Below are positions 15,501 to 55,700 of a stretch of 64,000 nucleotides of DNA, one piece after another. A program made the position numbers and the translations under genes. The stretch is from a virus (lineage: Duplodnaviria; Caudoviricetes), in IMG/VR virus record IMGVR_UViG_3300032295_000707, positions 2,700-66,699 of that record; one strand, 5' to 3'. Every line of letters starts with the position of its first letter. Position 1 is the stretch's first letter. The notes below the pieces were generated by a model, which ran no database searches, was not told the origin of the DNA, and was given only the letters and a program-made list of their open reading frames with translations.

Positions 15501-18500
15501 TGATATCTAATGCAACATTTTTTGCATATCTAATAGCATTAGCAGTTTCTTTTAACTGTCCCGGAATCACACTCACTGCACCATTCCAATAACTTTTCCC
15601 AGCAATCAATGTGTTAACATTTGATCGATTAATAATATCATTTGAAATAGCATCAACAATTAATCCAACATCTCTATAACATAGATCTTCGTTGTATGTG
15701 AATACATATGGATCAATGAATGTCTTGTCAACATAAGCAATTGTTTCTGCTTGAATAAAATTTCTATTTGCTTTTAATAAATCAAATGCTCTAACAAGAT
15801 TAGTACTGGTAGAATATGTTAATCCTACAGAAGTTAGTTCAGGGGCAACACTAGGACCGTTTCTAATAATGTCTGTTATTAAACTTAAATTATTAACAAT
15901 ACTATTTGCTTCTGCTTTTGTTGCAGGAGGCAAATTAACATTTTGTGTACTGGTTGATTGATAAGGATTTGTAATTTTTGTACCTTGTACAACTTTGTCT
16001 ACTACAAATTTTAAGTACTTGTAAGCAGCAGTAGTTTGTGGAATTTCATTTACAAGAACTGTGCTTGTTGAGTTATATCCAAAATAGGACACTCCAGCCT
16101 GGATACTTTGTCTATTGCCACCGCGAAGTAAATCAACTGCAATAGAATCAACAATGAATCCTGCATCTCTTAAACATTTTGCAGAATCATAAGAGAATCC
16201 AATTGGTTTATTAGCTTCTACCCAAGCAATAGTTTCAGCTTGAATAAAAGATTTATTTGCAACTAGAGAATTGTATGCATTTATAATTTGACCGTCGGTG
16301 CTAACTTCGCCATTTCCTAAAATTAGATCGCTAACTCCAACAGTTCCAGTGCTTATAATATTAATAATTAAATCACAATTGTCTACAACACTTTCTACAA
16401 CCGACGCGGAAGCTGTTCCAGTTGTTACTGTATTTTGTTGAACAGGAACTTGGAGAGGACTAATAGCATTGCCTTGGATAATCTGTTCAACTATATCTCG
16501 AAGATAGGTGAACGCACCTATGGTAGTTGGCTCTTCTCCGGGGATATTTGTTGCTGCCTGATTCCAATACTGCAATCCTGAAAAAGCAGAGTTAGAGTTG
16601 CTTTCATATATTAAGTCTATTGCTAAACTATCTACAATAATACCAGTATCTCTATAACATTTAGCTGCATTGTAAATAAAATCTAATTTAGTAAAAGTAG
16701 TATCAACAAATGCAACAACTTCATGTTGTATAAATTCTTTATTATCAACTAGACTTTGGTAACTGTTTAATGTTCCTGGAACAGTAGTTGGTGCGCCACT
16801 GTTAGATTGAACAATAACTGATGTATCTGTACCTAAGTTAATAATATCAGTTAATACTAGAACATTTTTTTCTATTATTTCTGCAGAAGCATTACTACCA
16901 ATTGTTAGTGTGTTAATATATTGAGTAACTGTACTTTGATACGGCTCTAATAAAGATTTTCCTAAAATTACATTTCTTGCTACATTGGCTAGATAGTTAA
17001 ATGCTGCAATAGTTTCTTCTTGTTCTGTTGGAATTAAAGAAGTCACTCCGTCCCAATATTGATTACCTGCAATAACAGATTGTTCATTGCCGCCATACAG
17101 TAAATCTGTTGCTAGAGCATCTATTGCCAAACCTACATTTGCAAAAAATATTGATTTATCGTAGGTAAACCCGGTTAGTGGCTGTCCTACATAAGTTTGA
17201 TTAACAAAACTAACTACCTCATTCTGCAAAAATCCTCTATTAGCATTTAGTAATGCGGCAGCATTTTCATAACTTACATTATTAAGAATTATATCGTTTA
17301 ACAGTTGTACTAATTCAGTAACTCTAGGAGCAACTACTACACCTCCGGTTAATCCCAGATTAAAAGTTTGGGATTCTACATTTCCAAAAGTGACCGACAC
17401 AGGAAGGTTATCAACAACTTGATTTATAACTGATGCTAAATGGGTAAACGCTGCTACTGTAGCAGTAGTTGCAGTTCCTGAATACTGTCGACCAGCACTA
17501 ACAATTTTAGTGTTTCCGCCTAATATAGTATCGTGTGCAATTGCATCAATAATTACTCCTGCATCTCGTCTAAATTTAACTCTATCATATGTTAGTGTAG
17601 GAAAAGTTAAATCAACATACGCCACTGCTTCTGATTGCAAGAAAGATTTATTTGATACAATTAAAGATTTAGCTGATTGAAAGTCAGGATCAGGATTAAG
17701 AATGTCTTCAACTACTGCTACTGGAATATCAGGATTAATTAAAATACCAGTTCCATTTATGGCCATGCCAATTTCAAGCATCTGAGTAGTAGGAATTTCT
17801 AATACATTAATTAGTAATGTAGTTGTTCCTGATATATAAGTTGAAGTTCCAACCACTAGAGGAACTTGTACAGTTTGATTAGGTACAAACATTGTACCAT
17901 CAAATAACCACGGTCCGCTCTGATTAGTACAGTTTTGAATATATGGGCTGTGGAATAAATCAATCGGATTATCTAAGCGAGGAGGAAATGCTACAGCGTA
18001 AGCACCAGTTGTGTATGTACCGGCTCCTCCTGGTGCGTAACGAGTTACTTCTCCTCGACGAAGATTTAACATTGTCATCTGAGCAACATATACACCTGAG
18101 TTTACATGAAATAAATCAACTGTATTGTTAAGTGGTTCTATAAATGTAGTTCTTAAACTATCTCCCATTACAGTTGTATAGGGTTTTAGTTGAATAGGAT
18201 TGTCTTCAACATATTTTCCAGCGGCAACTTTAATAATAGTGCCTTCTTTGTAGAAAGGACTGTTAGTAGCACCTGTGATAGTACGGCATGCTCTACTAGA
18301 ATCCATTGCACGGCCATCATTGTCATCGTTGCCATTTTCGTTAACATACAATACATTGTTAACAACAGGGAATGTACCAATTGGGCTACCGCCATAGACA
18401 CGAATGTCTCCATTGATAGTAACAGTCTTATTAATTGTTCTTTCAAGTAATGGAATGTCTGGGAAGAATTGAATATCAGTGCCAGTGGCAATTGTGTCAA

Positions 18501-19080
18501 TTCTCTTTGTATAGATATCTTGTATGTAACCAGATAGCCAGCCGCTTTCTGTTGAGCCTAAACTAAATTCTGATACTACACTGGTATTAGTTACAAAGTA
18601 AGTAAGTGTTCCAGTTGTAATAACTGTCCCGGTTCCGTTAAAAGGAATAAAATCTGATTTAATATCAGATCCGAATATAACAGTGTCAGTGGTTGTGTTG
18701 TCACCTAAGACGATGTCGCCGTCTGCTGTGATATTTCCTGTTACATGAAGATTACCGTCGATAAGTGTATCGCCGATAAGTGTGATTGTTTCTTCGCCGC
18801 CTGGTTGAAATACTAGCGGGCCATAAAGTGTTTCAATTAAACTAGTACCAGTTGTACTAGAGCTGATGTTTACTAGACCAATTGTGCCAGTGTTGGCAAT
18901 AATCTTGAAGGCATTAATTGTGCCATTAACATCTAATTCGTATTTAGGAGCACTATTTCGAATACCAATCTTTTTGGCACCGACATCCCAGAAAATTAAA
19001 TCTCCGTCAATTGCTAATGGAATCCCGTCGCGATTCAGGTTAGCAGCAAGTAACGGACCGGTAATACGACCTACGGCCAT
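12565..19080 (-). CDS. Giant virion-associated repeat protein, 2171 aa (paralogue of the 3391-aa protein; 8 helical repeats)
   Basis: GAGGAG SD; MAVGRITGPLLAANLNRDG N-terminus; same beta-helix segments and near-identical C-terminus (SASGYLFEYVGAG...FFTSTDQNGDFRIG...MTPFIL). Confidence 0.8.
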   Translation of the reverse strand: MAVGRITGPLLAANLNRDGIPLAIDGDLIFWDVGAKKIGIRNSAPKYELDVNGTINAFKIIANTGTIGLVNISSSTTGTSLIETLYGPLVFQPGGEETITLIGDTLIDGNLHVTGNITADGDIVLGDNTTTDTVIFGSDIKSDFIPFNGTGTVITTGTLTYFVTNTSVVSEFSLGSTESGWLSGYIQDIYTKRIDTIATGTDIQFFPDIPLLERTINKTVTINGDIRVYGGSPIGTFPVVNNVLYVNENGNDDNDGRAMDSSRACRTITGATNSPFYKEGTIIKVAAGKYVEDNPIQLKPYTTVMGDSLRTTFIEPLNNTVDLFHVNSGVYVAQMTMLNLRRGEVTRYAPGGAGTYTTGAYAVAFPPRLDNPIDLFHSPYIQNCTNQSGPWLFDGTMFVPNQTVQVPLVVGTSTYISGTTTLLINVLEIPTTQMLEIGMAINGTGILINPDIPVAVVEDILNPDPDFQSAKSLIVSNKSFLQSEAVAYVDLTFPTLTYDRVKFRRDAGVIIDAIAHDTILGGNTKIVSAGRQYSGTATTATVAAFTHLASVINQVVDNLPVSVTFGNVESQTFNLGLTGGVVVAPRVTELVQLLNDIILNNVSYENAAALLNANRGFLQNEVVSFVNQTYVGQPLTGFTYDKSIFFANVGLAIDALATDLLYGGNEQSVIAGNQYWDGVTSLIPTEQEETIAAFNYLANVARNVILGKSLLEPYQSTVTQYINTLTIGSNASAEIIEKNVLVLTDIINLGTDTSVIVQSNSGAPTTVPGTLNSYQSLVDNKEFIQHEVVAFVDTTFTKLDFIYNAAKCYRDTGIIVDSLAIDLIYESNSNSAFSGLQYWNQAATNIPGEEPTTIGAFTYLRDIVEQIIQGNAISPLQVPVQQNTVTTGTASASVVESVVDNCDLIINIISTGTVGVSDLILGNGEVSTDGQIINAYNSLVANKSFIQAETIAWVEANKPIGFSYDSAKCLRDAGFIVDSIAVDLLRGGNRQSIQAGVSYFGYNSTSTVLVNEIPQTTAAYKYLKFVVDKVVQGTKITNPYQSTSTQNVNLPPATKAEANSIVNNLSLITDIIRNGPSVAPELTSVGLTYSTSTNLVRAFDLLKANRNFIQAETIAYVDKTFIDPYVFTYNEDLCYRDVGLIVDAISNDIINRSNVNTLIAGKSYWNGAVSVIPGQLKETANAIRYAKNVALDIISNNPVTYSYQTGTVLTQLINPLLQGGALATPLVESNFNAISTIIENGPEYTPFSTNSTLTQFIVTLSTSTIASANNDVVYFGQTTVYPVEDKNIPGEWEKNGFADRRIDPNGAGGGALVDGNAPSLNSPIQSFVFDAFTQLNQGGTGIHIINRGYAQLVSVFTIFCDIAVRCESGGICSITNSNANFGDLCLVAEGYGPREFGGTVYNPAGFFYNKLTKSWEYSENYPEGFFPNKSEVCIFVPDPNDRPHIALVMEVVPPDIYDDYDGNVVPYKNEQGYPGFLAAVNTTGTLSTGSYSISGIDTTGFAIGQNLYIRDQFGNESDNNGLGTRYLNSNTIITDISYQTIQLSNPITATGSEPGNENYFNLYACGNAYYTVLTSEIASSPYASGASKIRGQENETIDAINFMNSVVDSVISNIAIDTPYSTATAQVVNLTYPAGAGATAFVDEKLSILTDVILSGPQSAPLVLTTGTIPLGAKDAITLLELNRIFIMNETVGYVDAIYNSFTYDQAKCERDTGLIVDSIALDLLHDGFTQSQYAGIQYWNQSGLTGGIEGQLTTTSNAIAYARDLAVSVVTGYGSTNNTVSTLFNTILDILGGVLVDTSDAIVPNGPVSSVPTIVNAYNALLAAKSSIQSQTIAWINANNPDFTYDQNTCERDLGYIVDSVAFDLIHSGNRQSIQAGSYYYSFGSNVSAIPNEIPQTTAAYNFIKSIIGDIITGTPTSPSYQNQITQTVSSNPGTIDEVNAAAERIDLITSIINNGPGITPVTPISLTASTSTNVVNAYNLINANRDYIKAEVIAYIDSEYGGFTYDRLKCRRDVGLIIDALQADLATGGNFRSVEAAKTYYTKDGTYHLVTMEEYVANPLLFVDGCKVNFYQRSYMSASGYLFEYVGAGTNYGALPQVGRVDPNQSKETVQLNNGKVFFTSTDQNGDFRIGPGLVISQATGVLSGRTFQKSLFAEMTPFILAVEADAGG

Positions 19081-21992: not shown

Positions 21993-22967
21993 TTAAGCGT
22001 TAGCAACAGAAACTTTGCCTGTAGACGCAGCATCAAATGACCAACCTGCTTGTGTATTTGTAGCAAATAGATACGAGCCTGACATTGTTCTTCTTGATAG
22101 TAATGCTTTGTGAGCAGTTAACTTCAAGACCCAGTATGTACTGCCGTTAGCATCTGTAGCAACTAATGCCATTTCTTTATGAGCAGGAGTATCGCTTGCA
22201 ACTAATTTACATTGTGCAACCCCGTCAGCAGTCTTAACCAAATATCTGCGACTTGCTTCTTGTTTAATTACATCGCCTGCTTGAGCAGTTCCGCCAGATG
22301 TAGTTTTAGCAGTAAAACTTAGTGCGTTTTCTTGGTTAGTACTTGAACCAATTGCACCAGTATCAACAGTTAATACTGGAGTATTTCCACTCGGAGTTGT
22401 TTGTCCAGTAAATGTATGGCCGCTCCATGATAGTACTGGAACTGCTGTGTAACCAGAACCTTTTTCAAGGATAGTAATACTCTTAACACGGTATGTTGCA
22501 GTAATTTGTAAGTCTGTACCAGCATTAGGTGCTTGTAGTACTTGATGTGTTGTAATACCTGTACCGTCAAAGTCGCCACGGTGGAATTCGCCACGGTTAC
22601 CGCCAACAAAGTCAACTGATGTAACTTTGCTTGATGTTTCGACAATACGAACAACAGCGCCACCGCCCATACCAGTAATAGCCGTTGAAAGACCTGGTAA
22701 GTAGTCGCCATCAGTTTGACCACCTGATGCAAATGTAACTGTATCTAATTCAAATACAACATCAGCAGTAGCTTGTACACCGCCTGGCAATGCTGGTGCA
22801 GCAATGTTTAGTAGTGGAAAGTTTTTGTATGTATTAGTAACAACAAAACTACCAGCTGTTGCTACGCTGATGCTAGCTAATCCTTCACCGCCGATAAAAT
22901 TATCGCCAGCTCCTGTGGTACCGATGTTGCGGTTACCAAAATATTTCTTTTTAATTGGGCGTCCCAT
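21993..22967 (-). CDS. Virion structural protein (possible head decoration), 324 aa
   Basis: Directly downstream of the major capsid gene, with its own promoter, strong SD (AAGGAG), high-expression codon usage and own terminator; MGRPIKKKYFG N-terminus. Decoration role is inference. Confidence 0.6.
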   Translation of the reverse strand: MGRPIKKKYFGNRNIGTTGAGDNFIGGEGLASISVATAGSFVVTNTYKNFPLLNIAAPALPGGVQATADVVFELDTVTFASGGQTDGDYLPGLSTAITGMGGGAVVRIVETSSKVTSVDFVGGNRGEFHRGDFDGTGITTHQVLQAPNAGTDLQITATYRVKSITILEKGSGYTAVPVLSWSGHTFTGQTTPSGNTPVLTVDTGAIGSSTNQENALSFTAKTTSGGTAQAGDVIKQEASRRYLVKTADGVAQCKLVASDTPAHKEMALVATDANGSTYWVLKLTAHKALLSRRTMSGSYLFATNTQAGWSFDAASTGKVSVANA

Positions 22968-23045
22968 TTTGTTTCTCCTTGAGTTATGAGCGTTCTAGGC
23001 CCTACGCGGTGGGTGCCGCATAATAATCTAGATATTATATTTAAC

Positions 23046-27417: not shown

Positions 27418-27425
27418 TATTTATA
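27418..27425 (-). promoter_or_regulatory. T4-type late promoter TATAAATA
   Basis: Exact T4 late consensus overlapping the portal stop codon; a gp55-like gene is present in the window. Confidence 0.7.
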
Positions 27426-31709: not shown

Positions 31710-31784
31710 TGGTATTTTTCCGTCATTCTGTGCGTATATAAATAAAAACGCAATATCCAAGTTTATTTATCGGAGAACAAACAC

Positions 31785-32656: not shown

Positions 32657-32875
32657 TTGTCTCTAGCAATTGAAGACATCATCGAACTCTCCAAAAAAAT
32701 GGAGCACGAGACAAAAGCCATTAAGGATGAACTGTTTAGATGTTGCTGGTATATGCGTGGATCTCTACAGCTAGCTGATGCTTACGAGTTGCCGTTGGAA
32801 GACAGACAAATCATTAGTAAGATAGTCTCGGATAATTTTGAGACTACTAAAAAGACAAACTTACCGTTCTTTTAA
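32657..32875 (+). CDS. Small baseplate hub assembly protein (gp51-like position), 72 aa, TTG start
   Basis: CWYMRGSL...AYEL..EDRQII motif; follows the gp26-like gene. Confidence 0.5.
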   Translation: MSLAIEDIIELSKKMEHETKAIKDELFRCCWYMRGSLQLADAYELPLEDRQIISKIVSDNFETTKKTNLPFF

Positions 32876-33966
32876 AGCTTCTGACCTAAGAAGTTGCTGT
32901 AGAAGTCAATACTTTCGCGTTGTAGTTTTTTCATCGAAGTACTACCGTCTGGATTTGTAACTAACTTGTTTTGACTTCCGCCTACATAATCTTTAAATCC
33001 AGATCCAGTCTGGCTAGCAGTTGTTTGGCCGGCTGCTCGCTTACCTTGTAACTTAGCCTTCATAGCATCTTGCTGTGCTTGAGTCATCTTACCACCTGTT
33101 TGTGGTGCAGGTGCTGTGCCAGTTGGAGCAGCAGTTGGCGCTGGCTGTTGTTGGGTAGCTTGAACGCCGCTTGGATCTTTACCGGCTGCAACATCTGCCA
33201 TTTGTTGTTTAAATTCAGGAGAGTTAGTTACTTGTTCTGCTTCTTCAGGACTTGTAAATTTTTGTCCTGTTACTGAATTAAACTTAGGAAGCCCTGCTGG
33301 CCATTGAGCAGGCGCATTAGTTGCAGGAGGTGTTCCAATTGAAGCAGCTTTATCTACTTCTGCTTTGAAAGCTGGATCACTTGTATATCGAGGATCTTTC
33401 ATTGCTTCTTCAGGTGTCTTACCTGATACTGGGTCAGTAGCTGGCGCAGTGCCTGCTGGTGCAGAAGCTGGTTGTTTATTTGATTGTTCTATTTGATCTG
33501 CTTGTTTATTAAGATCGGCAGCTTGTTGTCTAAGTGCAGCAGGATCAGCGCCTGCAGGCTGAGCACCTCCAGTTGCGGCTGGAGCAGGTGCGCTTCCACT
33601 TGCTGGTGCTTGTTTTGGATCCCAACTAGCTTTTCCTTGAGCATATCCTGCTTTAGCATCAGACCATGCATTTTTTAAACCTCTACCGGCAGCTTTAGTA
33701 GCACCAACAACATTACCCGCAGCTTTACCTAAAAAAGATCCAACGCCTTCCTGTAAACATCTGTTGTTATAAGAAATTAGCATTTCTGAAATAAAAGACT
33801 CTGTAAAGATTCTTCCAGCTTGATTAACGCCTAAATCTTTGACAGCTATCTTTATAGATTCATCACATAGTTGCTTAATAGTTCTAATACCTAAAGGTAA
33901 TTGATCTGCTAATTTTTGATGATAAGCAGTATATTGTGATTCGACAATAAGGTCAGTAATTTTCAT
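32872..33966 (-). CDS. Low-complexity Pro/Ala/Gln-rich late protein, 364 aa (candidate internal head protein)
   Basis: Own TATAAATA promoter (34023-34030) and AGGA SD; MKITDLIVE N-terminus; PAxAAPA linkers. Confidence 0.6.
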   Translation of the reverse strand: MKITDLIVESQYTAYHQKLADQLPLGIRTIKQLCDESIKIAVKDLGVNQAGRIFTESFISEMLISYNNRCLQEGVGSFLGKAAGNVVGATKAAGRGLKNAWSDAKAGYAQGKASWDPKQAPASGSAPAPAATGGAQPAGADPAALRQQAADLNKQADQIEQSNKQPASAPAGTAPATDPVSGKTPEEAMKDPRYTSDPAFKAEVDKAASIGTPPATNAPAQWPAGLPKFNSVTGQKFTSPEEAEQVTNSPEFKQQMADVAAGKDPSGVQATQQQPAPTAAPTGTAPAPQTGGKMTQAQQDAMKAKLQGKRAAGQTTASQTGSGFKDYVGGSQNKLVTNPDGSTSMKKLQRESIDFYSNFLGQKL

Positions 33967-34022
33967 ATTAGATAAGTCCTATTTTTAAATATGATGAAAC
34001 TAAGTTTCAGAAGCATTTGTTT

Positions 34023-34030
34023 TATTTATA
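34023..34030 (-). promoter_or_regulatory. T4-type late promoter TATAAATA
   Basis: Exact consensus 57 nt upstream of the 364-aa gene, abutting a GNRA-loop hairpin. Confidence 0.7.
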
Positions 34031-34104
34031 ATGAGCTTACGCTCATTTGCTTCTTCGTTAACACTCGAAGCATTTTAGTTAGTAGAGATTAACGCGAAGC
34101 GTTT

Positions 34105-34488
34105 AAATTCATGTAGATTGCTTCGGTCAGACGGAACCGTTTTGCTGCGGTTCCATCTTTTGTCTTCATGTGAGTTGCACACAGCCGAGACATTGGAAGT
34201 AGGTATTTTTTATTCACCGTAAGCTAATGGGCTCTGATCTTTCCCAACCTACATCGACTCGCATAATGCGTCTTAGACCTCGTTCCTAGTGTCTAAGTTT
34301 TCTTAGCCGGTGATTTCGTATGCTAACATTCATACTATAACAATGCGTTGGGCGTATGGTTCGTACCCTCAGACTCGCTTCCAATTTTTCAGGATAGTCA
34401 GATTTACTGACGGGAGTGCATCATCATGTTGCGTGTCCGGTTATTCCCCGGTTTTTCCACAGCGGTATTATAAACTGGCCCGCTAACC
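34105..34488 (-). ncRNA. Candidate large structured non-coding RNA (~380 nt), family not recognised
   Basis: No ORF >=60 aa in an otherwise fully coding genome; GC higher than flanks; multiple helices by eye, e.g. ATGTAGGTTG(34253-34244)/CAATCTACAT(34120-34111), ATGGAACCG/CGGTTCCGT, CTTAGAC/GTCTAAG, GTCAG/CTGAC, GTATG/CATAC, AGCGG/CCGCT; G-U pairs favour the minus strand. Confidence 0.55.
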
Positions 34489-34767
34489 TTAGGTGTTAGG
34501 TGATATATAGCCCTTAGGAAGCCAAGAAACAAACATGCCCTTGCCTTTTTTATTCTTGCAAGTATTGCAGACTACTTTGCCTGCATGTGGTCCTGTAGGT
34601 TCGTTAATGATTTCCCAATCATGGTCTTTATGGATGCCTAAATTTTGCTTGAGATTGTCTCTTTGAGTATGCCATGCTTTGTCAAAACCGTTTTTAGGAT
34701 TTGTATAATATTCTGTGTTTAATACACTTGTTTTATTACTAGGTCTTTCCCAATTAAGTTTTGTCAT
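34489..34767 (-). CDS. Small hypothetical protein with H...CxxC motif, 92 aa
   Basis: ATGA overlap with the GIY-YIG gene (translational coupling); GPHAGKVVCNTC...FVSWL. Confidence 0.65.
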   Translation of the reverse strand: MTKLNWERPSNKTSVLNTEYYTNPKNGFDKAWHTQRDNLKQNLGIHKDHDWEIINEPTGPHAGKVVCNTCKNKKGKGMFVSWLPKGYISPNT

Positions 34768-35192
34768 GTCTTGCCTTTGATATGAGAGCCATGTACACGG
34801 ACTTGTATATGTCCGTTATAGTATTCATCGGATTCTAATACTTTGCGGTCGAATTGTTCGCGGGCCTCAATGTAAGATGTTTCTGCTTTAGATTTACAAT
34901 AATAAAGTATTTCTCTTGAGAAGTTATCTTTGCCTAGTGATGTGATATCTGCTGTTAAATTAGGACTGGACCCGTAATACTCCTGCCAGTCGCTGTCGAT
35001 TTTGCTTCGAATCTTCTTTTTCTTCTTGGTGCCGTTCTTTAACTTTACAGTCTTGTAGGTCGTTTTACTAAATTTTGCTAACTTTTTGCCAATGTATCGG
35101 CGCCCCGAAGCTATATTGGTAATGCAATATACAAAACCGACACAGTCCTCGGGTAATTCATTTACAACTTGTCCTTGATAAGTCCAGGTCAT
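34764..35192 (-). CDS. Minimal GIY-YIG nuclease, 142 aa
   Basis: GFVYCITN....RRYIGKK, later YYGSS, EAREQF and YYNG residues fitting the GIY-YIG catalytic core; no C-terminal DNA-binding module. Confidence 0.85.
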   Translation of the reverse strand: MTWTYQGQVVNELPEDCVGFVYCITNIASGRRYIGKKLAKFSKTTYKTVKLKNGTKKKKKIRSKIDSDWQEYYGSSPNLTADITSLGKDNFSREILYYCKSKAETSYIEAREQFDRKVLESDEYYNGHIQVRVHGSHIKGKT

Positions 35193-35693: not shown

Positions 35694-36548
35694 TTAGTAA
35701 ACAGTCCAATCAACAATATGATCGCAAGATCTTACCAAAGTATTAGTAACTGACCTAGTCCACGGTTGTTGATCTACATATTCTAACTTACCTAAATTAA
35801 TATATCCCACAGCTAATCTTGGATCTTGTGGCGCATACGGCCAAATTAGTCCGCTAGAACTATAAAAATTCTCAAATTCTTGAGCCGATACCCTAATATC
35901 AAAGAATCTCAAAGTATGGAACGGGGATATGCTATGCTGTGGCAGTATTTGATCTGCAGGACAACCAGTGTCTTTGCTAATATACAGCTCTAAAGGATGT
36001 CTCCCAACATGAGGATAATGAAGTACTAAGTCTCCAAAATTTAAATTGGGACTAAACAATTTATAATCATCAATTTGAATTTCTTCCCAACTTGACCTAT
36101 GACTATTGGGACATAATAACAGATACATGAATTCTTTCTTCTTCTTCTTTACATTATATAGGAATTGTAGCTCATGAATCAAGTCGTTGTACACAGTTAG
36201 CTGTTTTCTTTTAGAGATATCTGTTTCTACTCGTTCTTGATTAGGAAAATGAACATGTAATCTGTTTAAACTTTCTTCAGGATCTAAGTTATTCCAATAT
36301 CCTTCAATCTTTTCAGGAAGCCATACATTAAGATCAGTGATTAAATTATCTAATTCCAATATCTTTGAATCCCAGTTACGAATAATTCCTCTCCAAGGAT
36401 CTAAACTATCTCTTAGTTGAGACGGATTACATTGACTTATCTGTTCCGCCCATTGCTGTGCAACCCTGTGAGACTCTAAGCGATATGTTAAAACACATCG
36501 CTTAGATTCTGATGCAATAGTAATTTCGTAAAAATTATGCTTCGACAT
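35694..36548 (-). CDS. Hypothetical protein, 284 aa
   Basis: Long ORF overlapping the gp46 stop by 14 nt; no family recognised. Confidence 0.65.
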   Translation of the reverse strand: MSKHNFYEITIASESKRCVLTYRLESHRVAQQWAEQISQCNPSQLRDSLDPWRGIIRNWDSKILELDNLITDLNVWLPEKIEGYWNNLDPEESLNRLHVHFPNQERVETDISKRKQLTVYNDLIHELQFLYNVKKKKKEFMYLLLCPNSHRSSWEEIQIDDYKLFSPNLNFGDLVLHYPHVGRHPLELYISKDTGCPADQILPQHSISPFHTLRFFDIRVSAQEFENFYSSSGLIWPYAPQDPRLAVGYINLGKLEYVDQQPWTRSVTNTLVRSCDHIVDWTVY

Positions 36549-38313
36549 AGTCGGTATCAGTAGCGTAGCTAGTGAATCCGTTCTCTTTAACTACTTTTAA
36601 CACATTGTTAACTCGTCCGATAAGTTCATCTTTATGACTAATCAAGTAAATGTTCTTATTCCGTTCACGACCCATCTTTTTAAGCACTGCTAACCCTGCT
36701 TCCACACCGGCAGCATCCATACCTGCATCAATTAACTCGTCAATAAACAACAAATTAATGTGTTGATACAAGTTTTCCCATACATCTCGGAACGCCCAAG
36801 ATAAACTTAGGATTAATCTGTTTCGTTCACCTCTAGAAAGATTATCAAAATCTAAGTCTTGTCCTAATTGGGTAATCTCAACATTTAAGTCATTTAAGAA
36901 AACAACCTGATGCGGCAAGCCAATTTTAGTAATATAATAGCCTAGTCGCTTGTTTAAGTAGTTTAAATTCTGATCGATAATCTTTTTACGAATAAAACTA
37001 TCTTTGTTTGTTAGCAGTTTAAGTAAAAACTCTTGATGATCTTTAACTTTTGTCAAGTTGTTTACTGTATCCCACTTAATTTCTTGAAGGGCTGTCTTTT
37101 TTAGTTCTTCAATTTGTTCTTCGTAGGGATTAAATTCGATGGCTTTAGCTTCTAAACTATTTTCTAAGCTCTTTAAATTGTTTTTATGGCCTAAGGCTTC
37201 TGCTTCTCGCTCGTAAAAAGTACTAGGCTTACGAAGTTGCACTCCGTCCCCAACTTCTTCTGCAATCTGTTTAAGTTGAGCCCTCATCCGTTGCCAATAT
37301 TCGTATGCTTCATCATGATGTTGTGTAGCAGTAGCAGTCATTTCTTCGTGCTTATGATCATGTAGTGCTTGTTCGCAAGCATGACATGTTTTGTTTGCTA
37401 GACTTTCTAATTCTTTTGTATACTTTGCTAGACTTTTTTCAGCTTGTATAACCGCAGACTCTACAGTGGCTTTTTGTTTATTAAGGTTTCGAATCTTTGT
37501 ATCGTTTTCTTCCCAAGCCTTTAGATCAATATGTGCCTGTAATTCGGCTTCAATGTCAACTGCTTCTAAACTAACAATAGCTTTACCTAAGTTTTCGAGC
37601 TCAGTTTGCTGTTTACTATCCCAAGCCTTGCTTTTAAATTGTAAACTATCAATGCTTTTCTGTACATTTTCGTTAGCTGCCTTGATTGCTTCAATTTTAG
37701 CAGCTTCTTGTTGAATAGCATCTTTACTTTCTTTAACTTGAGCTTTTAAAGATTCTGCTTTTTCGGAAAGTAATGTAATTCCTAGTAACTGTTCAATAAC
37801 TTCTCGTTGTTCAGCCGCCTTAAGACTTAAAAAAGGCTCTGTATATGTGTTCAACGCAACTAGATGCTTGAACATAGTATGGCTCATACCTAATAAGTGC
37901 TCAATAGTTTTCTGAGTTTCTCGGCTATCGCCTTGAGCATCATCTTCGTCCTTGGCTTTTACTTGCTCGTTGTCAACATAGAATTTAAGAACATTAGGCT
38001 TGCGTCCTCGTTCAATCTTATAAGATCTTCCTTGAACTTCAAACTCAACAGTTACTAACATAGCTTTGCCGTTAGTTTTGTTGATCAAGTTTTCTTTTTT
38101 GATGTTTGTAAGGGCATTACCATACAAAGCATAGCTCAAAGCATTAACAATAGTAGTTTTTCCAGTACCGTTCCTTGAACCGCTATCATCTCCGCCCATG
38201 TCTAAGTTTTCACCTAGCACTAAAGTTAGTTGATGCTTGTCAAAATCGACAGCCTGTGTTTGATTACCTACACTTAAAAAGTTTTTAACAGTTATATTCT
38301 TGAGTTTAAACAT
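36535..38313 (-). CDS. gp46: Recombination ATPase, Rad50/SbcC-like (T4 gp46), 592 aa
   Basis: KNFLSVG N-terminus, Walker A (GENLD...RNGTGKT), coiled coil with CHAC zinc hook, LSRGE signature, LLFIDE Walker B, LISH switch. Confidence 0.93.
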   Translation of the reverse strand: MFKLKNITVKNFLSVGNQTQAVDFDKHQLTLVLGENLDMGGDDSGSRNGTGKTTIVNALSYALYGNALTNIKKENLINKTNGKAMLVTVEFEVQGRSYKIERGRKPNVLKFYVDNEQVKAKDEDDAQGDSRETQKTIEHLLGMSHTMFKHLVALNTYTEPFLSLKAAEQREVIEQLLGITLLSEKAESLKAQVKESKDAIQQEAAKIEAIKAANENVQKSIDSLQFKSKAWDSKQQTELENLGKAIVSLEAVDIEAELQAHIDLKAWEENDTKIRNLNKQKATVESAVIQAEKSLAKYTKELESLANKTCHACEQALHDHKHEEMTATATQHHDEAYEYWQRMRAQLKQIAEEVGDGVQLRKPSTFYEREAEALGHKNNLKSLENSLEAKAIEFNPYEEQIEELKKTALQEIKWDTVNNLTKVKDHQEFLLKLLTNKDSFIRKKIIDQNLNYLNKRLGYYITKIGLPHQVVFLNDLNVEITQLGQDLDFDNLSRGERNRLILSLSWAFRDVWENLYQHINLLFIDELIDAGMDAAGVEAGLAVLKKMGRERNKNIYLISHKDELIGRVNNVLKVVKENGFTSYATDTDYVEA

Positions 38314-49271: not shown

Positions 49272-49279
49272 TATAAATA
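49272..49279 (+). promoter_or_regulatory. T4-type late promoter TATAAATA
   Basis: Exact consensus 24 nt upstream of the gp6-like gene. Confidence 0.7.
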
Positions 49280-52300: not shown

Positions 52301-52722
52301 TTGTTTATCAACCTGCAATTTATAAAGTTTTATTTGGAACTACTGCTAATAAAAATTTACAAGCAACATTTAAAGCAGTTAGAAATTCGACAAGGTCTAT
52401 TTCTGATAACGATATTAAATCTAGAATTTTAACAGCAATTAATGAATTCTTTAGTTTAGATAATTGGGACTTTGGACAACCATTCTATTTTAGCGAACTG
52501 TCCACTTATGTGATGAACACACTGTCTCCTGATATAACAAACTTTATTCTAGTACCTAAAGCAGATGTACCGTTTGGTAGCTTATATGAAATTGCATGTC
52601 AAAATAATGAAATTTTTGTAAGCGGAGTTACAGCAACTGACATTGAAGTAATTGATACTATTACTTCTAGTCAAATTAAAACAACCTCAACAATTATTAA
52701 CAGTTCAGTAGGAGCAGCCTAA
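49303..52722 (+). CDS. gp6: Baseplate wedge subunit (T4 gp6-like), 1139 aa
   Basis: DFKSYDFETLRRTMITYLRENYPEDFNDY, LIDLIAYLGQ, ENFLETAQRRESILRLA, FADGAFGNLP, QNRMITAEDY motifs. Confidence 0.85.
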   Translation: MIPSTNNKLLVAEDWKKIYQSFNNSDFKSYDFETLRRTMITYLRENYPEDFNDYIDSSEYVALIDLIAYLGQNLSFRVDLNARENFLETAQRRESILRLAQLINYNPKRNTPANGFLKITSISTTENITDANGVNLSNTPIAWNDPSNSNWYQQFLTVINNAMPADITFGKPYDRKSISGIPTEQYKINSAITDVPLFTFSKSVSGVSMEFEIVSSTFAESTYIKESTPLPGSNFSFIFRNDSRGSASANTGFFVHFRQGTLGVSSFSVDTPVANEVVGIDIANINDTDVWLWQLDGNGNYGTEWTKVSNITGNNIIYNSLDISKRNIYAVTSRDQDQIDLTFADGAFGNLPKGNFKLFYRQSNGLQYSIKPDQMNGIQIQVPYVNKGGQRNTITFTLSLQYTVNNSSAPETNDNIKLKAPQAYYTQNRMITAEDYNIAPLTAGTDILKVKSVNRISSGISKYFELSDVSGKYSTTNIYGSDGALYKDIKQSTIEFSFDNRNDIYSVIQNQIIPIVESDMLRDFYFDNYPRPDLQSQSALWQQLTSTTNQSTGYFKDKILGTPLQTGFFSGNNLSYVDTGALVKYVPGDGYVFAKNGKRIPVANADSTTSKYMWSKIALVIGDGANAGAGALANGTGPIVATGYVPTDAVASSVIPNFSTVFSYSLQNEIINLCLATRNFGIAFSADTRSWYIINDTNLNTADPFTLVYQKDVSNSNRDTGWMFAFLWNGTGYEVVYRTSDYIFESKAETAFFYDGTDKNYDFVTNTVVKDKISVLGINTVSTSSFYSLGKDYHWQVNGNIVEADGYVEPKKVKVSFFDAQDDGQIDNPDSFEEIVISNSTSSYTTYKDKFVYFKNSADELTYSLVDSSNFLAYPIPDNIPADMKIEGQLYYFYDYGLDYVASYSTATSAPFTLEPSYYAKPGRHSLKFHYVHNSGDSKRLDPSKTNLIDVFILSSSYDTTFRAWLSSGAGTAPLPPTSSSLETNYSAALEPIKAISDSIVYQPAIYKVLFGTTANKNLQATFKAVRNSTRSISDNDIKSRILTAINEFFSLDNWDFGQPFYFSELSTYVMNTLSPDITNFILVPKADVPFGSLYEIACQNNEIFVSGVTATDIEVIDTITSSQIKTTSTIINSSVGAA

Positions 52723-55700
52723 TGGCAAATAGCATTTCTCAAGTAGTCGATATTAGTAGTCCCGGAACTACAAGAAGGTCAGTTGATTTATTACCTGCTC
52801 TTTTTAGAACTGATAAAAATACTAAATTTTTAGCAGGAACATTGGATCAGTTTATTCAACCGGCTCAGTTAGAAAGACTTAATGGGTGGGTTGGTAGTAG
52901 AGCTACGCCTACTTATAATCCTGCTAAAGACAACTATATCACTTCTAATTCTAAATTAAGAAATGCATATCAAGTGGCACCTGCATTAGTGGTTAAAGAT
53001 GAAAATTTAAATATTTCAAAAGTTTTAAATTATGACGATTTAATTAATCAATTAGAATTTCAAGGAGCATCTGTTAAAAAGTTAGACAGACTAGCTGATC
53101 CGCAATTATATTCTTATAATCCTCATATTGAATGGGATAAATTTGTTAATTTTGATCAGTACTACTGGATGCCTAACGGACCTGATGTAGTATCAGTAGC
53201 CGGTGAAAATAATTTGTCAGTTAGTACCTATACTGTTAGTGACAGTGAAGACGGCCAGTATTTTATTTTTACACCTGACGGGTTAACACAAAATCCTTTA
53301 CTGACACTATATAGAGGTGTTACCTATATTTTTAATATTCAATCTTCTAAGAAATTTTGGCTTAAGAATGTTCGTATTGCAGGTACCGAAGGCCAATATC
53401 GAGGTGTTGATATTAACGGAATTAGTAATGGTAAGATAATTTTTAAAGTAGACGAAAATACTCCTGCTAGTTTATTTTATGTAGCAGAAGACTCTGTCAT
53501 TAACGGCGGAGAAATATTAATTAAATCATTAGTCGATGATTCTAAAATAGATGTAGATGCAAATATTATAGGTAAGAAAACTTATACTTCTGGTAACGGA
53601 GTTGTATTTACAAACGGGTTACGAATTAGATTTTCTGGTAATGTTTTTCCAGATACTTATGCTGACAAAGAATTTTTTGTTGAAGGAGTAGGTAACAAGA
53701 TTGTATTGATAGATGTTGCAACTTTAGAAACTCCTGAAAAATTTGTTAGTGTGCTAGATGAAAATTTTGATGGAACCGGGTTTGATGATTACGGATTTGA
53801 TACATTTAAAAATACTCCATTAGTGCCTGAATACATTACTATCAATCGTGCCAGTATTGATCGTAATCCATGGACAAGATACAATAGATGGTTCCACGAA
53901 GATGTAATTATTGCGTCAGCGGGATATAATAACAGAACTCCTGTGCTGCCTGTTGAAAACAGAGGCAAGCGCCCTATTGTTGAATTTGAGCCTAACCTTC
54001 AATTGTTTAACTTTGGCTCTACTGCTATTGCTAATGTTCAACATATTGACACAATTACTACAGATGCATTTTCTGATATTGAAGGTCAATTGGGCTATTA
54101 TGTTAATGGTGTAGAAATAACACAAGGTGATAGAATTGTGTTTACATCAGATACTGATCCGTTTGTAAACTCTAAAATTTTTGTTGTAAACTTTGTAAGA
54201 ATTGACGGCATCTTAAAAATTGCATTGGAAGAAGCGACTGATTCACCACCGTTTGTTGGCGCCTCTATTATTGTTACTAAGGGTGTTAACAATGCCGGAA
54301 CTAATTGGTGGTTTGACGGTACAACATGGCAATTTGGTCAACAAAAAGAAGTATATAATCAAGCTCCGTTATTTGACATATTTGATAAAGACGAACATAG
54401 CTACGGTGATAGTGCATATTATCAAAGTTATTTCTTAGGTTCGAAGGTATTTGGGTATGCTATGGGAACAGGCAGCAATGATCCTATACTTGGATTTCCT
54501 CTAAAATATAAAAATATTGCAGACCAGGCATTTTATTTGTTTGAAAATTATTTTGTAACAGATTTAAGCAGGGTTGTGGACTTTGACACAACTTATTATT
54601 TGCCAATAAGCAAAGGGTTTATTAGAAAAAATATTTCAGCTGATGTAAATTTTTATATAAATGTTTGGGATGAGTCTTCTCATTATACAGTTCCTATTTT
54701 ACAATACGAAGTAATTCAAAGTAACACATCACAAGTTGAAATTACATCTATTAATAATCCAGCTTATCAAGATGTTAAAATAGAAGTATTTCTAAATAAT
54801 AATAAAGCATTTTTAGAAACTGATTATACTTTATATGCACAAGGTTCAAGATATTTTGTATCTTTTATAAATCAATTAAAAGCGCAAGATACTGTTTTAA
54901 TTAAAGTTTATGGAAATGTTGTTCCGAGTGAAACTGGATATTATGATATTTCTATCGGCTGGTCCAACAACCCACTTAATGGCCCAATTGAAGAATTTAC
55001 ATTATCTGAATTAACAGATCACGCTAAATCTATGGCAGATAGTCATCCAGATTTTGCAGGAAAATTTTTAGGAAAAAATAATTCTAGAGACATTATTGAT
55101 CTTTCTAGATACGGTAGCAGATTAGTTAGAAATAAAAATCCACTTTCAATGGCTGGGTATTTTATTGCCGATAAAGAGCATAATATTATTAATGCAGTTA
55201 AACAAGTCTGTTTGCAATATAATCAATTTAAATTACGATTCTTAGAACAAATTACAAATTTAAAAGGTAATTACGATGCTATAACTTCAGTTGACCTAGC
55301 ATTACATAATATGAATATTGCTAGAGATGCGTCATCTGCTTATGCTTATGCAGATATGCTGCCATATGGCAATGATGTAACTTCTAGGCAAGTTACAGTA
55401 ACTGATTCTAGAAATGTAACATACGGTATTAATAGCATATATCAATTAACACAAACTGATCCCAGATCGGTACTAGTATATCATACTCCTGTATCTACCG
55501 GAACACGATCTCAATTAATTGTTGAAAGAGATTATTATTTTGATCCTTATGACTCAACAGTAATTATTAAAGCTCCGTTAACTAAGGGTGATATTCTTCT
55601 TATAAATGATTATGCCAGTACAGATGGTTCTTTTGTTCCTCCTACCCCTACTAAGTTAGGATTATATCCAAAATATTACCCAGAAATTTTTGTAGATAAC

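What the first reader, a model, noticed from the sequence alone, without database searches (positions are those of the whole stretch)
34105..34488. Candidate large, ornate non-coding RNA hidden in the only sizeable ORF-free gap
SEEN: starts right at the stop codon of the 92-aa gene. The 5' part has local helices AGCGG/CCGCT, CCGG/CCGG, GTCAG/CTGAC, GTATG/CATAC and CTTAGAC/GTCTAAG. The 3' domain is closed by a 10-bp long-range helix (34253-34244 with 34120-34111) and contains G(A)TCAG/CTGAC(C), TGTCT/AGACA, TGTGTG/CACATG and a 9-11-bp helix ATGGAACCG/CGGTTCCGT. Alternative pairings (CCCAAC/GTTGGG, GTAGGT/ACCTAC) compete for the same GTAGGTTGGG segment, and GCGAGTC and ACGCATT each occur twice. 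KNOWLEDGE: large structured RNAs of unknown function (GOLLD, ROOL) occur in phages; I cannot match this sequence to them from memory. INFERENCE: a ribozyme-like, switchable or scaffold RNA.
Basis: partly seen in the sequence, partly recalled or inferred. Interest (0 to 1): 0.8.

Follow-up and report, generated by a model that had tools for sequence, protein, structure and literature searches.

The report
Twin-box structured phage RNA gene
The gene-free gap behind a small nuclease gene of this uncultured giant freshwater T4-like phage encodes a real, intricately folded non-coding RNA of an uncatalogued type that carries one short word twice, always letter-identical, and whose job is still unknown.

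Summary
Window 34488 to 34108, minus strand, is the roughly 380-nt core of a structured RNA gene. On 37 distinct homologues, 12 helices (63 pairs) are 98% paired and 33 pairs show compensatory changes. G-U to A-C counts of 221:7 fix the strand. No reading frame is conserved, and the core is more conserved than the neighbouring genes. No Rfam family matches.

Related phages carry another RNA at the same spot, whose first 140 nt are the orphan Rfam motif Polynucleobacter-1. The window's RNA shares only the 3' module with it, not that motif.

The 3' module shows one 7-12-nt word twice, identical within each of about 38 sequences, in at least 12 variants between them. The 10-bp long-range helix and the alternative pairings are not.

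The RNA also occurs in podovirus-like contigs without the nuclease gene, so it is a gene in its own right.

Function is unknown. My favoured reading (about 0.3, inferred) is a ColE1-RNA-II-like transcript that re-pairs with its own DNA through the twin boxes.

This scan has already met the family on more than 25 other genomes.

The parts
34108..34505 (-). Conserved core of the RNA (W-type twin-box RNA), including a conserved 5' leader (CUAACAC..AAGG, about 34501-34486).
   Evidence: The conservation profile over 38 homologues is high from about -19 to +380 relative to 34488. Model R2 scores 214 bits at 34313-34490 and model R1 scores 95 bits at 34100-34191.
34318..34485 (-). 5' domain. Hairpins h1 (34485-34480/34465-34460) and h2 (34451-34448/34440-34437). 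Long-range helix Hc (34427-34418/34346-34337) encloses the ACUC/GAGU helix (34417-34414/34376-34373), h3 (34411-34407/34401-34397), UCC/GGA (34394-34392/34382-34380) and He (34368-34365/34353-34350). Hairpin Hf follows (34335-34331/34322-34318).
   Evidence: Every helix has compensatory changes. This is the most variable domain; it is partly deleted or replaced in L087, L090 and L111.
34199..34297 (-). Central domain. Hairpin Hg (34297-34291/34278-34272) has a near-invariant loop containing GGAACGA. Then a variable hairpin (34270-34260), a 3-bp pseudoknot (34255-34253 with 34238-34236), helix Hj (34252-34248/34203-34199) and hairpin Hk (34246-34243/34231-34228).
   Evidence: At the middle pseudoknot position there are 5 pair types and 100% pairing.
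34108..34192 (-). 3' twin-box module. Hairpin A (GUCU 34191-34188 with AGAC 34165-34162) holds box 1 (ACAUGAA, 34171-34165). Then 10-bp hairpin Hl (34158-34149/34138-34129), the invariant GUCUGAC (34132-34126), and box 2 (ACAUGAA, 34114-34108) in a tail predicted to be single-stranded.
   Evidence: Model R1, built from this module, finds the same module in 21 of 23 X-type loci.
34048..34107 (-). Variable linker after box 2, ending in a hairpin (GCUUC...GAAGC, about 34072-34048) that is kept by compensatory change between locus types.
   Evidence: It cannot be aligned between homologues. The hairpin is visible.
34030..34047 (-). Near-invariant 7-bp hairpin with a G-Y-N-A loop that abuts the late promoter. 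It is the likely 3' end or terminator of the RNA unit. A related hairpin follows the RNA in podovirus-like contigs.
   Evidence: The exact hairpin-plus-promoter pattern occurs in 47 to 55 IMG/VR contigs.
34023..34030 (-). T4-type late promoter TATAAATA for the 364-aa gene (32872-33966). It lies downstream of the RNA, so the RNA is not made from it.
   Evidence: The window has only 4 copies (9.9 expected by chance), each just upstream of a gene.
34489..34767 (-). 92-aa Cys/His-containing gene inserted between the nuclease gene and the RNA in a subset of phages. It is not part of the RNA.
   Evidence: It is present in the window, L019, L042, L061, L067, L069, L079, L092 and L107 and absent from the other loci. 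It has no Pfam or PHROG match.
34764..35192 (-). Stand-alone 142-aa GIY-YIG nuclease gene, the usual upstream neighbour of the RNA.
   Evidence: It matches PF19835 at 2.5e-33. The fold is nearest the I-TevI catalytic domain. It is adjacent to the RNA in nearly all T4-like loci.

Best explanation
SHOWN. The gap holds a gene for a folded non-coding RNA on the minus strand. Its core runs from 34505/34488 to 34108, and the whole unit probably ends at the hairpin at 34047-34030. It has three parts: a variable 5' domain, a central pseudoknotted domain with near-invariant loops, and a 3' 'twin-box' module. It is a new ('W-type') relative of the RNA that sits at the same locus in sister phages and whose 5' third is the Rfam motif Polynucleobacter-1. 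Only the 3' module is shared between the two.

INFERRED.
(1) The RNA is made early, as the tail of the gp47-gp46-...-GIY-YIG operon, and not from the late promoter, which lies downstream of it.
(2) The working part is the purine-rich box, shown once inside hairpin A and once in the free tail. The two copies are always identical, differ between lineages by single-letter steps, and have no full-length complementary partner nearby. The simplest two-site reading is therefore that each RNA box pairs with the template DNA strand under the other box.
(3) The transcript would then stay on its own DNA as a persistent hybrid, as ColE1 RNA II does through a repeated G-rich segment (recalled knowledge), and would prime or mark DNA replication. 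The folded 5' and central domains would control when this happens.

Odds: real RNA gene 0.95; the boxes are the effector 0.6; the R-loop/priming mechanism about 0.3.
For: RNA gene:
- 63 pairs are 98.3% paired and 33 have compensatory change, against 34-43% paired and 5-9 compensated pairs in the slid controls.
- G-U to A-C counts in the helices are 221:7.
- z = -3.78.
- No reading frame is conserved.
- Nucleotide identity of the core is 79-94%, against 66-74% for gp46 in the same loci.
- There are 45 distinct homologues in IMG/VR.

Relationship to the sister RNA:
- RF01718 scores 76-111 bits in sister loci but finds nothing in the window.
- Model R1 of the 3' module finds the syntenic module in 21 of 23 sister loci.

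Twin boxes:
- The two copies are identical in about 38 distinct modules, with at least 12 variants between them.
- Each box occurs exactly twice per locus, 50-62 nt apart, with no full-length complement in 3-14 kb of held sequence.
- The 5' strand of hairpin A does not covary with the box in register.
- Box 2 marks the exact end of conservation.

Independence from its neighbours: the same RNA lies in podovirus-like contigs between tail-adaptor genes and small ORFs, with or without the nuclease gene.

The late promoter lies downstream of the RNA.
Against: - No transcription data could be obtained.
- Cumulative GC skew has its minimum at about 40 kb, where transcription diverges, and shows no inflection at 34 kb.
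- Known T4 origins (oriF, oriG) need no elaborate RNA (recalled knowledge).
- A priming role does not obviously require invariant loops and a pseudoknot.
- The linker after box 2 is not markedly AT-rich by eye (not computed).
- An unseen trans partner, RNA or protein, would also keep the boxes identical.
- Iteron-like protein sites on the DNA would do the same.
Confidence: 0.3

Rival explanations
1. A free, trans-acting structured RNA (scaffold, decoy or ribozyme, in the manner of GOLLD, ROOL or phi29 pRNA). The exposed box 2 would bind an unseen partner, such as a host or phage RNA or a sequence-specific protein. Box 1 would be an internal, masked copy that competes for that partner or for the strand that masks it.
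For: The fold is compact and has several domains, with a pseudoknot and near-invariant loops and junctions, as seen in RNAs with tertiary structure. The RNA occurs in unrelated phage types. Box 2 lies in a tail predicted to be single-stranded while box 1 sits in a hairpin.
Against: This reading needs three partners to change in step for each of at least 12 box variants. No complementary sequence was found in the held loci. There is no match to any Rfam ribozyme or large RNA.
Confidence: 0.3
2. An intramolecular or intermolecular strand-exchange switch. The 5' strand of hairpin A would pair either with box 1 (closed form) or with box 2 (a long-range helix, or a swap between two molecules that gives dimers or oligomers).
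For: Both boxes can pair with the same upstream strand. MFE folds of some homologues (L079, L099) choose the long-range form. The only box difference seen is A versus G, at box position 7 in L067, L069, L070 and L092, which wobble pairing would tolerate.
Against: Hairpin A shows almost no compensatory change in register: 1 of 10 pairs. Box positions that are unpaired in hairpin A are nevertheless identical in both copies, and wobble-tolerant differences are otherwise absent.
Confidence: 0.15
3. The RNA is the cofactor or guide of the adjacent GIY-YIG nuclease (a ribonucleoprotein), or the nuclease is a homing endonuclease whose target is the RNA gene.
For: The nuclease gene, a bare catalytic domain of 142 aa, lies directly upstream of the RNA in nearly all T4-like loci of both RNA types. 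In four podovirus-like contigs it lies directly downstream. In podovirus-like contigs the nuclease gene is present or absent next to a conserved RNA gene, which looks like a free-standing homing endonuclease.
Against: Six podovirus-like loci carry the RNA without any homologue of the nuclease in 4.7-13.8 kb. 448 cultured phages carry homologues at 38-53% identity; in all four I inspected no large gap follows the gene. The nuclease is 90% identical in phages whose RNAs cannot be aligned. Homing would explain the linkage, not the RNA's function.
Confidence: 0.1
4. A cis-acting 3' UTR, terminator or insulator element that ends or stabilises the early operon and shields the late promoter.
For: It sits at the end of a co-directional operon, immediately before a conserved hairpin and a late promoter.
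Against: About 380 nt with a pseudoknot and invariant loops is far more than termination needs. The same RNA occurs with other neighbours and without the late promoter in podovirus-like contigs. The twin boxes are left unexplained.
Confidence: 0.1
5. It is not an RNA at all: a small conserved protein-coding gene, or chance structure.
For: Open frames of 50-70 codons exist on the opposite strand of the 5' domain in most homologues.
Against: Those frames fall in different reading phases and give unrelated peptides in different homologues. Single-base indels are common. Compensatory pair changes and the 221:7 G-U to A-C asymmetry are RNA signatures.
Confidence: 0.01

Closest known systems
Polynucleobacter-1 RNA motif (Rfam RF01718; Weinberg et al. 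2010, PMC2864571) and the uncatalogued full-length RNA that contains it
   Same: It occupies the same genomic slot in sister phages, right after the 142-aa GIY-YIG gene and before the same hairpin and late promoter. The paper's supplement already noted the position downstream of one gene family. The 3' twin-box module is homologous. Size (about 400-470 nt) and modular build are similar, and the function is unknown in both.
   Different: The window's RNA has no match to RF01718. Its 5' domain model finds nothing at the Polynucleobacter-1 position even with filters off. A sequence profile of the sister RNA finds nothing in the window. Its central pseudoknotted domain has no evident counterpart. 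The Rfam motif covers only the first 140 nt of the sister RNA.
ColE1 RNA II (plasmid replication preprimer)
   Same: It is a several-hundred-nt structured transcript whose folding decides whether it stays hybridised to its template. An upstream RNA segment has the same sequence as a segment near the 3' end, so that it can pair with the template DNA there (recalled knowledge: Masukata and Tomizawa 1990). That is what the twin boxes would allow.
   Different: There is no sequence or structural similarity, no antisense regulator is seen, and no origin activity, hybrid or RNase H processing has been shown here. GC skew gives no support.
GOLLD and ROOL large ornate RNAs (Rfam RF01998, RF03087)
   Same: They are large, multi-domain, phage-associated non-coding RNAs found by comparative analysis in environmental sequences, with unknown biochemical function.
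   Different: No covariance-model match. This RNA is smaller. There are no tRNA genes in the window, whereas GOLLD and ROOL often lie near tRNAs (recalled knowledge). Twin boxes are not described for them.
OMEGA/HEARO-type guide RNAs next to nuclease genes
   Same: A structured RNA lies next to a small nuclease gene.
   Different: The nuclease here is GIY-YIG, not IscB or TnpB. There is no Rfam match. The RNA occurs without the nuclease gene. The variable part is an internal pair of short identical words, not a terminal guide.

Membership tests
Polynucleobacter-1 (RF01718) | Covariance-model score at or above the gathering score (37 bits) | tested here: not met
   There is no hit in 33800-34700 at E up to 10, nor in the whole 66.7-kb record. 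Sister loci score 76-111 bits.
Polynucleobacter-1 (RF01718) | The 5' architecture: P1, P2 and P3 hairpins, then a long-range helix that encloses the CUAUCC..GGA element and P5 | tested here: not met
   By eye the order of motifs is similar (GCACUC, UAUCC..GGA). But the window's third hairpin lies inside the long-range helix, and model R2 of the window's 5' domain finds nothing at that position in 23 sister loci, with filters on or off.
Polynucleobacter-1 (RF01718) | Genomic context downstream of the GOS11034 / small GIY-YIG gene family | tested here: met
Full-length 'twin-box' RNA superfamily (uncatalogued) | A 3' module made of ACUC + box, a hairpin, G-N-N-UGAC, then AUCU + the same box | tested here: met
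   R1 scores 94.8 bits in the window and 12-28 bits at the syntenic place in 21 of 23 sister loci. Box identity is shown.
GOLLD / ROOL / HEARO / OLE / raiA and other large Rfam RNAs | Covariance-model match | tested here: not met
   The window's only Rfam hit is freshwater-2 at 22965-23041.
Group I / group II introns | Covariance-model match and an interrupted host gene | tested here: not met
   There is no Rfam hit. The flanking genes are complete, and a late promoter separates the RNA from the next gene.
tRNA / tmRNA | Detection by ARAGORN | tested here: not met
   One search finds none in the window.
RNA-II-like replication preprimer (works-like claim only) | An upstream RNA segment identical to a downstream segment, able to pair with template DNA | tested here: met
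   Twin boxes at 34171-34165 and 34114-34108, identical in all homologues.
RNA-II-like replication preprimer (works-like claim only) | Origin activity, persistent RNA-DNA hybrid, RNase H processing | not testable with these tools
   The only proxy available is cumulative GC skew, and it has no extremum at the locus.

The most novel reading that the evidence does not exclude
The twin-box RNAs (this W-type, the Polynucleobacter-1-containing type and a marine type) are a widespread class of phage-encoded origin RNAs. A folded transcript would use two identical purine-rich boxes to re-invade its own template, form a persistent R-loop, and prime or license replication. The same device would serve both giant T4-like phages and small podovirus-like phages.
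Probability: 0.3. Interest if true: 0.85.

Novelty: new variant of a known kind. Interest (0 to 1): 0.68.

Why it matters
Large, conserved RNAs with pseudoknots and invariant loops are rare, and they have usually turned out to be ribozymes or the cores of molecular machines. This one is common in uncultured lake phages (45 distinct sequences in IMG/VR) and also reaches marine phage contigs. It occurs in two unrelated phage body plans and is more conserved than the replication and recombination genes beside it. Neither Rfam nor the papers I could search describe it. It also shows that the orphan Polynucleobacter-1 motif is only one interchangeable head on a larger modular RNA.

The twin boxes are direct, not complementary, co-variation. 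That signature gives a concrete handle for experiments: single and double box mutants. If the R-loop reading is right, it would identify the unknown replication origins of a large group of aquatic T4-like phages.

Tried and rejected
- blastn of the gap and of a sister RNA against 50,697 cultured phage records found no match.
- An nhmmer profile of the sister RNA against the window found nothing.
- RF01718 on the window's own record found nothing.
- The W 5'-domain model searched against sister loci, with filters on and off, gave only noise.
- A conserved short ORF on either strand is rejected: the frames differ between homologues.
- I searched for a full-length complement of the box in each locus and found none.
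- Covariation between the 5' strand of hairpin A and the box is inconclusive: 1 of 10 pairs.
- A GC-skew inflection as an origin proxy is absent at the locus.
- PDB sequence searches for the nuclease, single and profile, gave nothing. In particular T4 endonuclease II was not matched. Foldseek gave only a weak I-TevI catalytic-domain match.
- The idea that the RNA is made from the late promoter is rejected, because that promoter lies downstream of the RNA.
- The metagenome scan, complex prediction and protein-atlas tools were not used.

Full report
**Setting.** The window is part of a 66.7-kb IMG/VR virus record that CheckV rates 18% complete, so it comes from a giant phage. Around the finding all genes read on the minus strand. 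In order they are:
- a gp47-like gene and a gp46/SbcC-like gene (36535-38313);
- three small genes;
- a 142-aa stand-alone GIY-YIG nuclease gene (34764-35192; PF19835, E = 2.5e-33);
- a 92-aa gene (34489-34767);
- the 522-nt gap (33967-34488);
- a 364-aa gene (32872-33966).

The gap is the largest ORF-free stretch in the window. TATAAATA, the T4 late-promoter word, occurs only four times in 64 kb, each time just upstream of a gene. The copy at 34023-34030 lies between the gap's structured part and the 364-aa gene. The RNA is therefore upstream of that late promoter, not behind it.

The decisive evidence comes from relatives. Two short words taken from the invariant centre of the gap were scanned through IMG/VR. 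Together with the earlier loci they gave 59 stretches and 45 distinct sequences of the same RNA.

On an alignment of 37 sequences, RNAalifold finds 40 pairs, 22 of them with compensatory changes. A mutual-information scan added a long-range helix and a pseudoknot. The curated structure of 12 helices and 63 pairs is 98.3% paired, and 33 pairs have changes on both sides. With the partners slid by 1-3 columns, only 34-43% of cells pair and 5-9 pairs look compensated. None of 500 shuffles reaches the observed pairing or covariation score.

In these helices there are 221 G-U cells against 7 A-C cells, so the RNA is read from the window's minus strand.

No reading frame is conserved. The 50-70-codon open frames seen on the opposite strand fall in different phases and give unrelated peptides in different homologues.

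The core is 79-94% identical at the nucleotide level in loci where the gp46 gene is 66-74% and the nuclease gene 68-94% identical. The linker behind the core cannot be aligned at all.

**Anatomy (window coordinates).**
- 5' domain: two hairpins, then a 10-bp long-range helix (34427-34418 with 34346-34337). That helix encloses a 4-bp ACUC/GAGU helix, a hairpin, a small UCC/GGA hairpin and a GGGU/GCCC hairpin. A further hairpin follows.
- Central domain: a 7-bp hairpin whose 12-nt loop is nearly invariant, a hairpin of variable length, and a GUAGG/CCUAC helix. That helix encloses a UGGG/CCCA hairpin whose loop pairs back to the three bases just 5' of the helix, forming a pseudoknot. One position of the pseudoknot shows five pair types and none breaks.
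- 3' module: a hairpin ('A'), a 10-bp hairpin, the invariant word GUCUGAC, and a tail predicted to be single-stranded.

The proposed 10-bp closing helix is not confirmed. It is complementary in most sequences, but wherever its 5' strand changes the supposed partner does not follow; the change is instead matched in the pseudoknot and in CCUAC. GTTGGG/CCCAAC fails in the same way.

**The twin boxes.** In the 3' module, the 7-12 nt that follow ACUC (inside hairpin A; window 34171-34165) are letter-for-letter the same as the 7-12 nt that follow AUCU in the tail (34114-34108). This holds in every one of about 38 distinct modules, yet the word differs between lineages in at least 12 variants linked by single-letter steps. 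The only mismatch seen is an A/G difference at position 7, in L067, L069, L070 and L092.

Each word occurs exactly twice per locus, 50-62 nt apart. No full-length complement exists in the 3-14 kb held for each locus. The 5' strand of hairpin A pairs with part of box 1 (83% of cells), but it does not covary with the box in register. The identity of the boxes is therefore not explained by that hairpin.

**Relatives at the same locus.** The hairpin-plus-late-promoter word at the 3' end of the gap is almost invariant, and it picked up 55 IMG/VR contigs. Nine of them carry the window's RNA type. The rest carry another RNA of similar length, whose sequence cannot be aligned with the window's. This happens although the nuclease upstream is 90% identical.

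That sister RNA is itself well supported, with 88 pairs of which 30 are compensated. Its first 140 nt are the Rfam motif Polynucleobacter-1, at 76-111 bits. The motif was described in 2010 from freshwater and estuary sequences as lying downstream of one gene family and having no known function.

The window's RNA is not a member of that family:
- RF01718 gives nothing in the window or in its whole record.
- A sequence profile of the sister RNA finds nothing in the window.
- A covariance model of the window's 5' domain finds nothing at the corresponding place in 23 sister loci, with filters on or off.

A model of the window's 3' module, by contrast, finds the syntenic module in 21 of 23 sister loci over its full length, at 12-28 bits. 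The sister RNAs also carry twin boxes. The two RNAs therefore share a tail and a genomic slot but have different heads.

A third head occurs in Red Sea contigs binned into a 'Neomarinimicrobiota' MAG. They show the same gene order, the window's central core and 3' module (R1 at 79.6 bits), and no hit of the 5'-domain model.

**Link to the nuclease gene.** In nearly all T4-like loci of both RNA types, the RNA follows the 142-aa GIY-YIG gene directly, or with the 92-aa gene in between. The window's RNA type also lies in podovirus-like contigs, where a Gp77-type tail adaptor gene sits upstream. Four of those contigs have a 58%-identical nuclease gene immediately after the RNA. Six have no homologue in 4.7-13.8 kb.

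The protein family is very large: at least 8000 clusters, almost all of those listed 140-147 aa long. Cultured T4-like phages hold 448 homologues at 38-53% identity. In the four I inspected, no large gap follows the gene. The predicted fold is nearest the I-TevI catalytic domain.

The RNA thus does not depend on the nuclease gene, nor the nuclease on the RNA. The adjacency looks like linkage. The presence-or-absence pattern in the podovirus-like contigs fits a free-standing homing endonuclease beside a conserved target.

**How it may work.** Shown: this is an RNA gene with a compact, multi-domain fold, an exchangeable head and a conserved tail carrying twin boxes. Everything that follows in this section is inferred.

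The RNA sits at the end of a co-directional early-type operon and before the late promoter, so it is probably made early and ends at the conserved hairpin at 34047-34030. A related hairpin follows the RNA in the podovirus-like contigs.

The boxes are the most telling feature. Identity, rather than complementarity, kept through many single-step changes, is what a two-site system produces. The only two-site reading that needs no unseen partner is that each RNA box pairs with the template DNA strand under the other box. ColE1 RNA II works this way: an upstream segment of the transcript pairs with template DNA near the origin and turns the nascent RNA into a persistent hybrid that primes replication (recalled knowledge). 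I give this reading about 0.3.

Against it:
- GC skew shows no inflection at 34 kb; the minimum lies at the point of divergent transcription near 40 kb.
- Known T4 origins need no such RNA.
- Nothing here shows a hybrid.

The rivals are a free trans-acting RNA with an unseen partner (0.3), a strand-exchange switch or oligomer (0.15), a partner or target of the nuclease (0.1), and a cis-acting operon end (0.1).

**Earlier notes of this scan.** After I had found the structure, the boxes and the Polynucleobacter-1 link, I looked up the scan's own notes. The same family has been reported on more than 25 other genomes, under the name 'twin-box RNA', with the same closest known family. Some of those reports proposed RNA-primed replication. 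I took that as a lead. I tested it only indirectly, through GC skew, the complement search and the covariation of hairpin A. It is not independent evidence.

**Verdict.** This is a real RNA gene of an uncatalogued type. It is related through its tail to the RNA that contains the orphan motif Polynucleobacter-1. Its function is unknown.

Noticed in passing
window 22965-23041 (-): The window's only Rfam hit is freshwater-2 RNA (RF02980): 61.4 bits against a gathering score of 49.9, full length. It lies directly upstream of the 324-aa gene 21993-22967.
   Followed up: no
window 27418-27425 (-), 31737-31744 (+), 34023-34030 (-), 49272-49279 (+): TATAAATA occurs only 4 times where 9.9 are expected by chance, each time just upstream of a gene start. 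It appears to be avoided outside true late promoters.
   Followed up: partly
window 34489-34767 (-): A 92-aa protein containing Cys and His, with no Pfam or PHROG match, is inserted between the nuclease gene and the RNA in a subset of phages (51-82% identity). Its start overlaps the nuclease gene's stop (ATGA). It might be a separate DNA-binding partner of the bare GIY-YIG domain.
   Followed up: partly
window 34764-35192 (-); L113, L114, L115: Homologues of the 142-aa GIY-YIG protein are labelled 'NAD synthetase' in many GenBank phage records and in PHROG 447, which looks like a propagated mis-annotation. In cyanophage S-SCSM1 the gene lies just after nrdA-nrdB, where T4 has denA (recalled knowledge), so it may be the endonuclease II counterpart. 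PDB sequence searches did not confirm this.
   Followed up: partly
L110 (JBDNIA010000124.1), L111 and L112 (PBPT01000016.1, PBPT01000082.1): Contigs of 73-335 kb binned into Crocinitomicaceae and 'Neomarinimicrobiota' MAGs carry the T4-like block (L112 the full order gp47, gp46, p64, GIY-YIG, twin-box RNA, baseplate hub; L110 and L111 parts of it). They are probably phage contigs mis-binned into bacterial genomes.
   Followed up: partly
L060, L068, L076 about 75 nt upstream of the RNA; L072, L086 about 250 nt upstream: In podovirus-like contigs a conserved word of the form TAAATA-N-TT-N-TGACAGGC precedes the RNA. It may be a phage-specific promoter.
   Followed up: no
window 34030-34154 (+): Read on the plus strand, three of the hairpins (34133-34154, 34053-34070, 34030-34047) are followed by T-rich runs and score as intrinsic terminators: 3 found against 1.1 expected. 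The G-U/A-C test places the RNA on the minus strand, so these may also stop antisense transcription.
   Followed up: no
window 1977-12152 (-), 12565-19080 (-), 52722-63998 (+): Three giant ORFs of 3391, 2171 and more than 3759 aa lie in the window. Other first-stage notes describe repeat domains in them.
   Followed up: no
window 32872-33966 (-): The 364-aa late gene behind the RNA encodes a protein rich in Pro, Ala and Gln with no family match. Its relatives (292-295 aa) lack the first 58 residues or so and are only 49-51% identical over the best aligned segment, far less conserved than the RNA or the nuclease.
   Followed up: no
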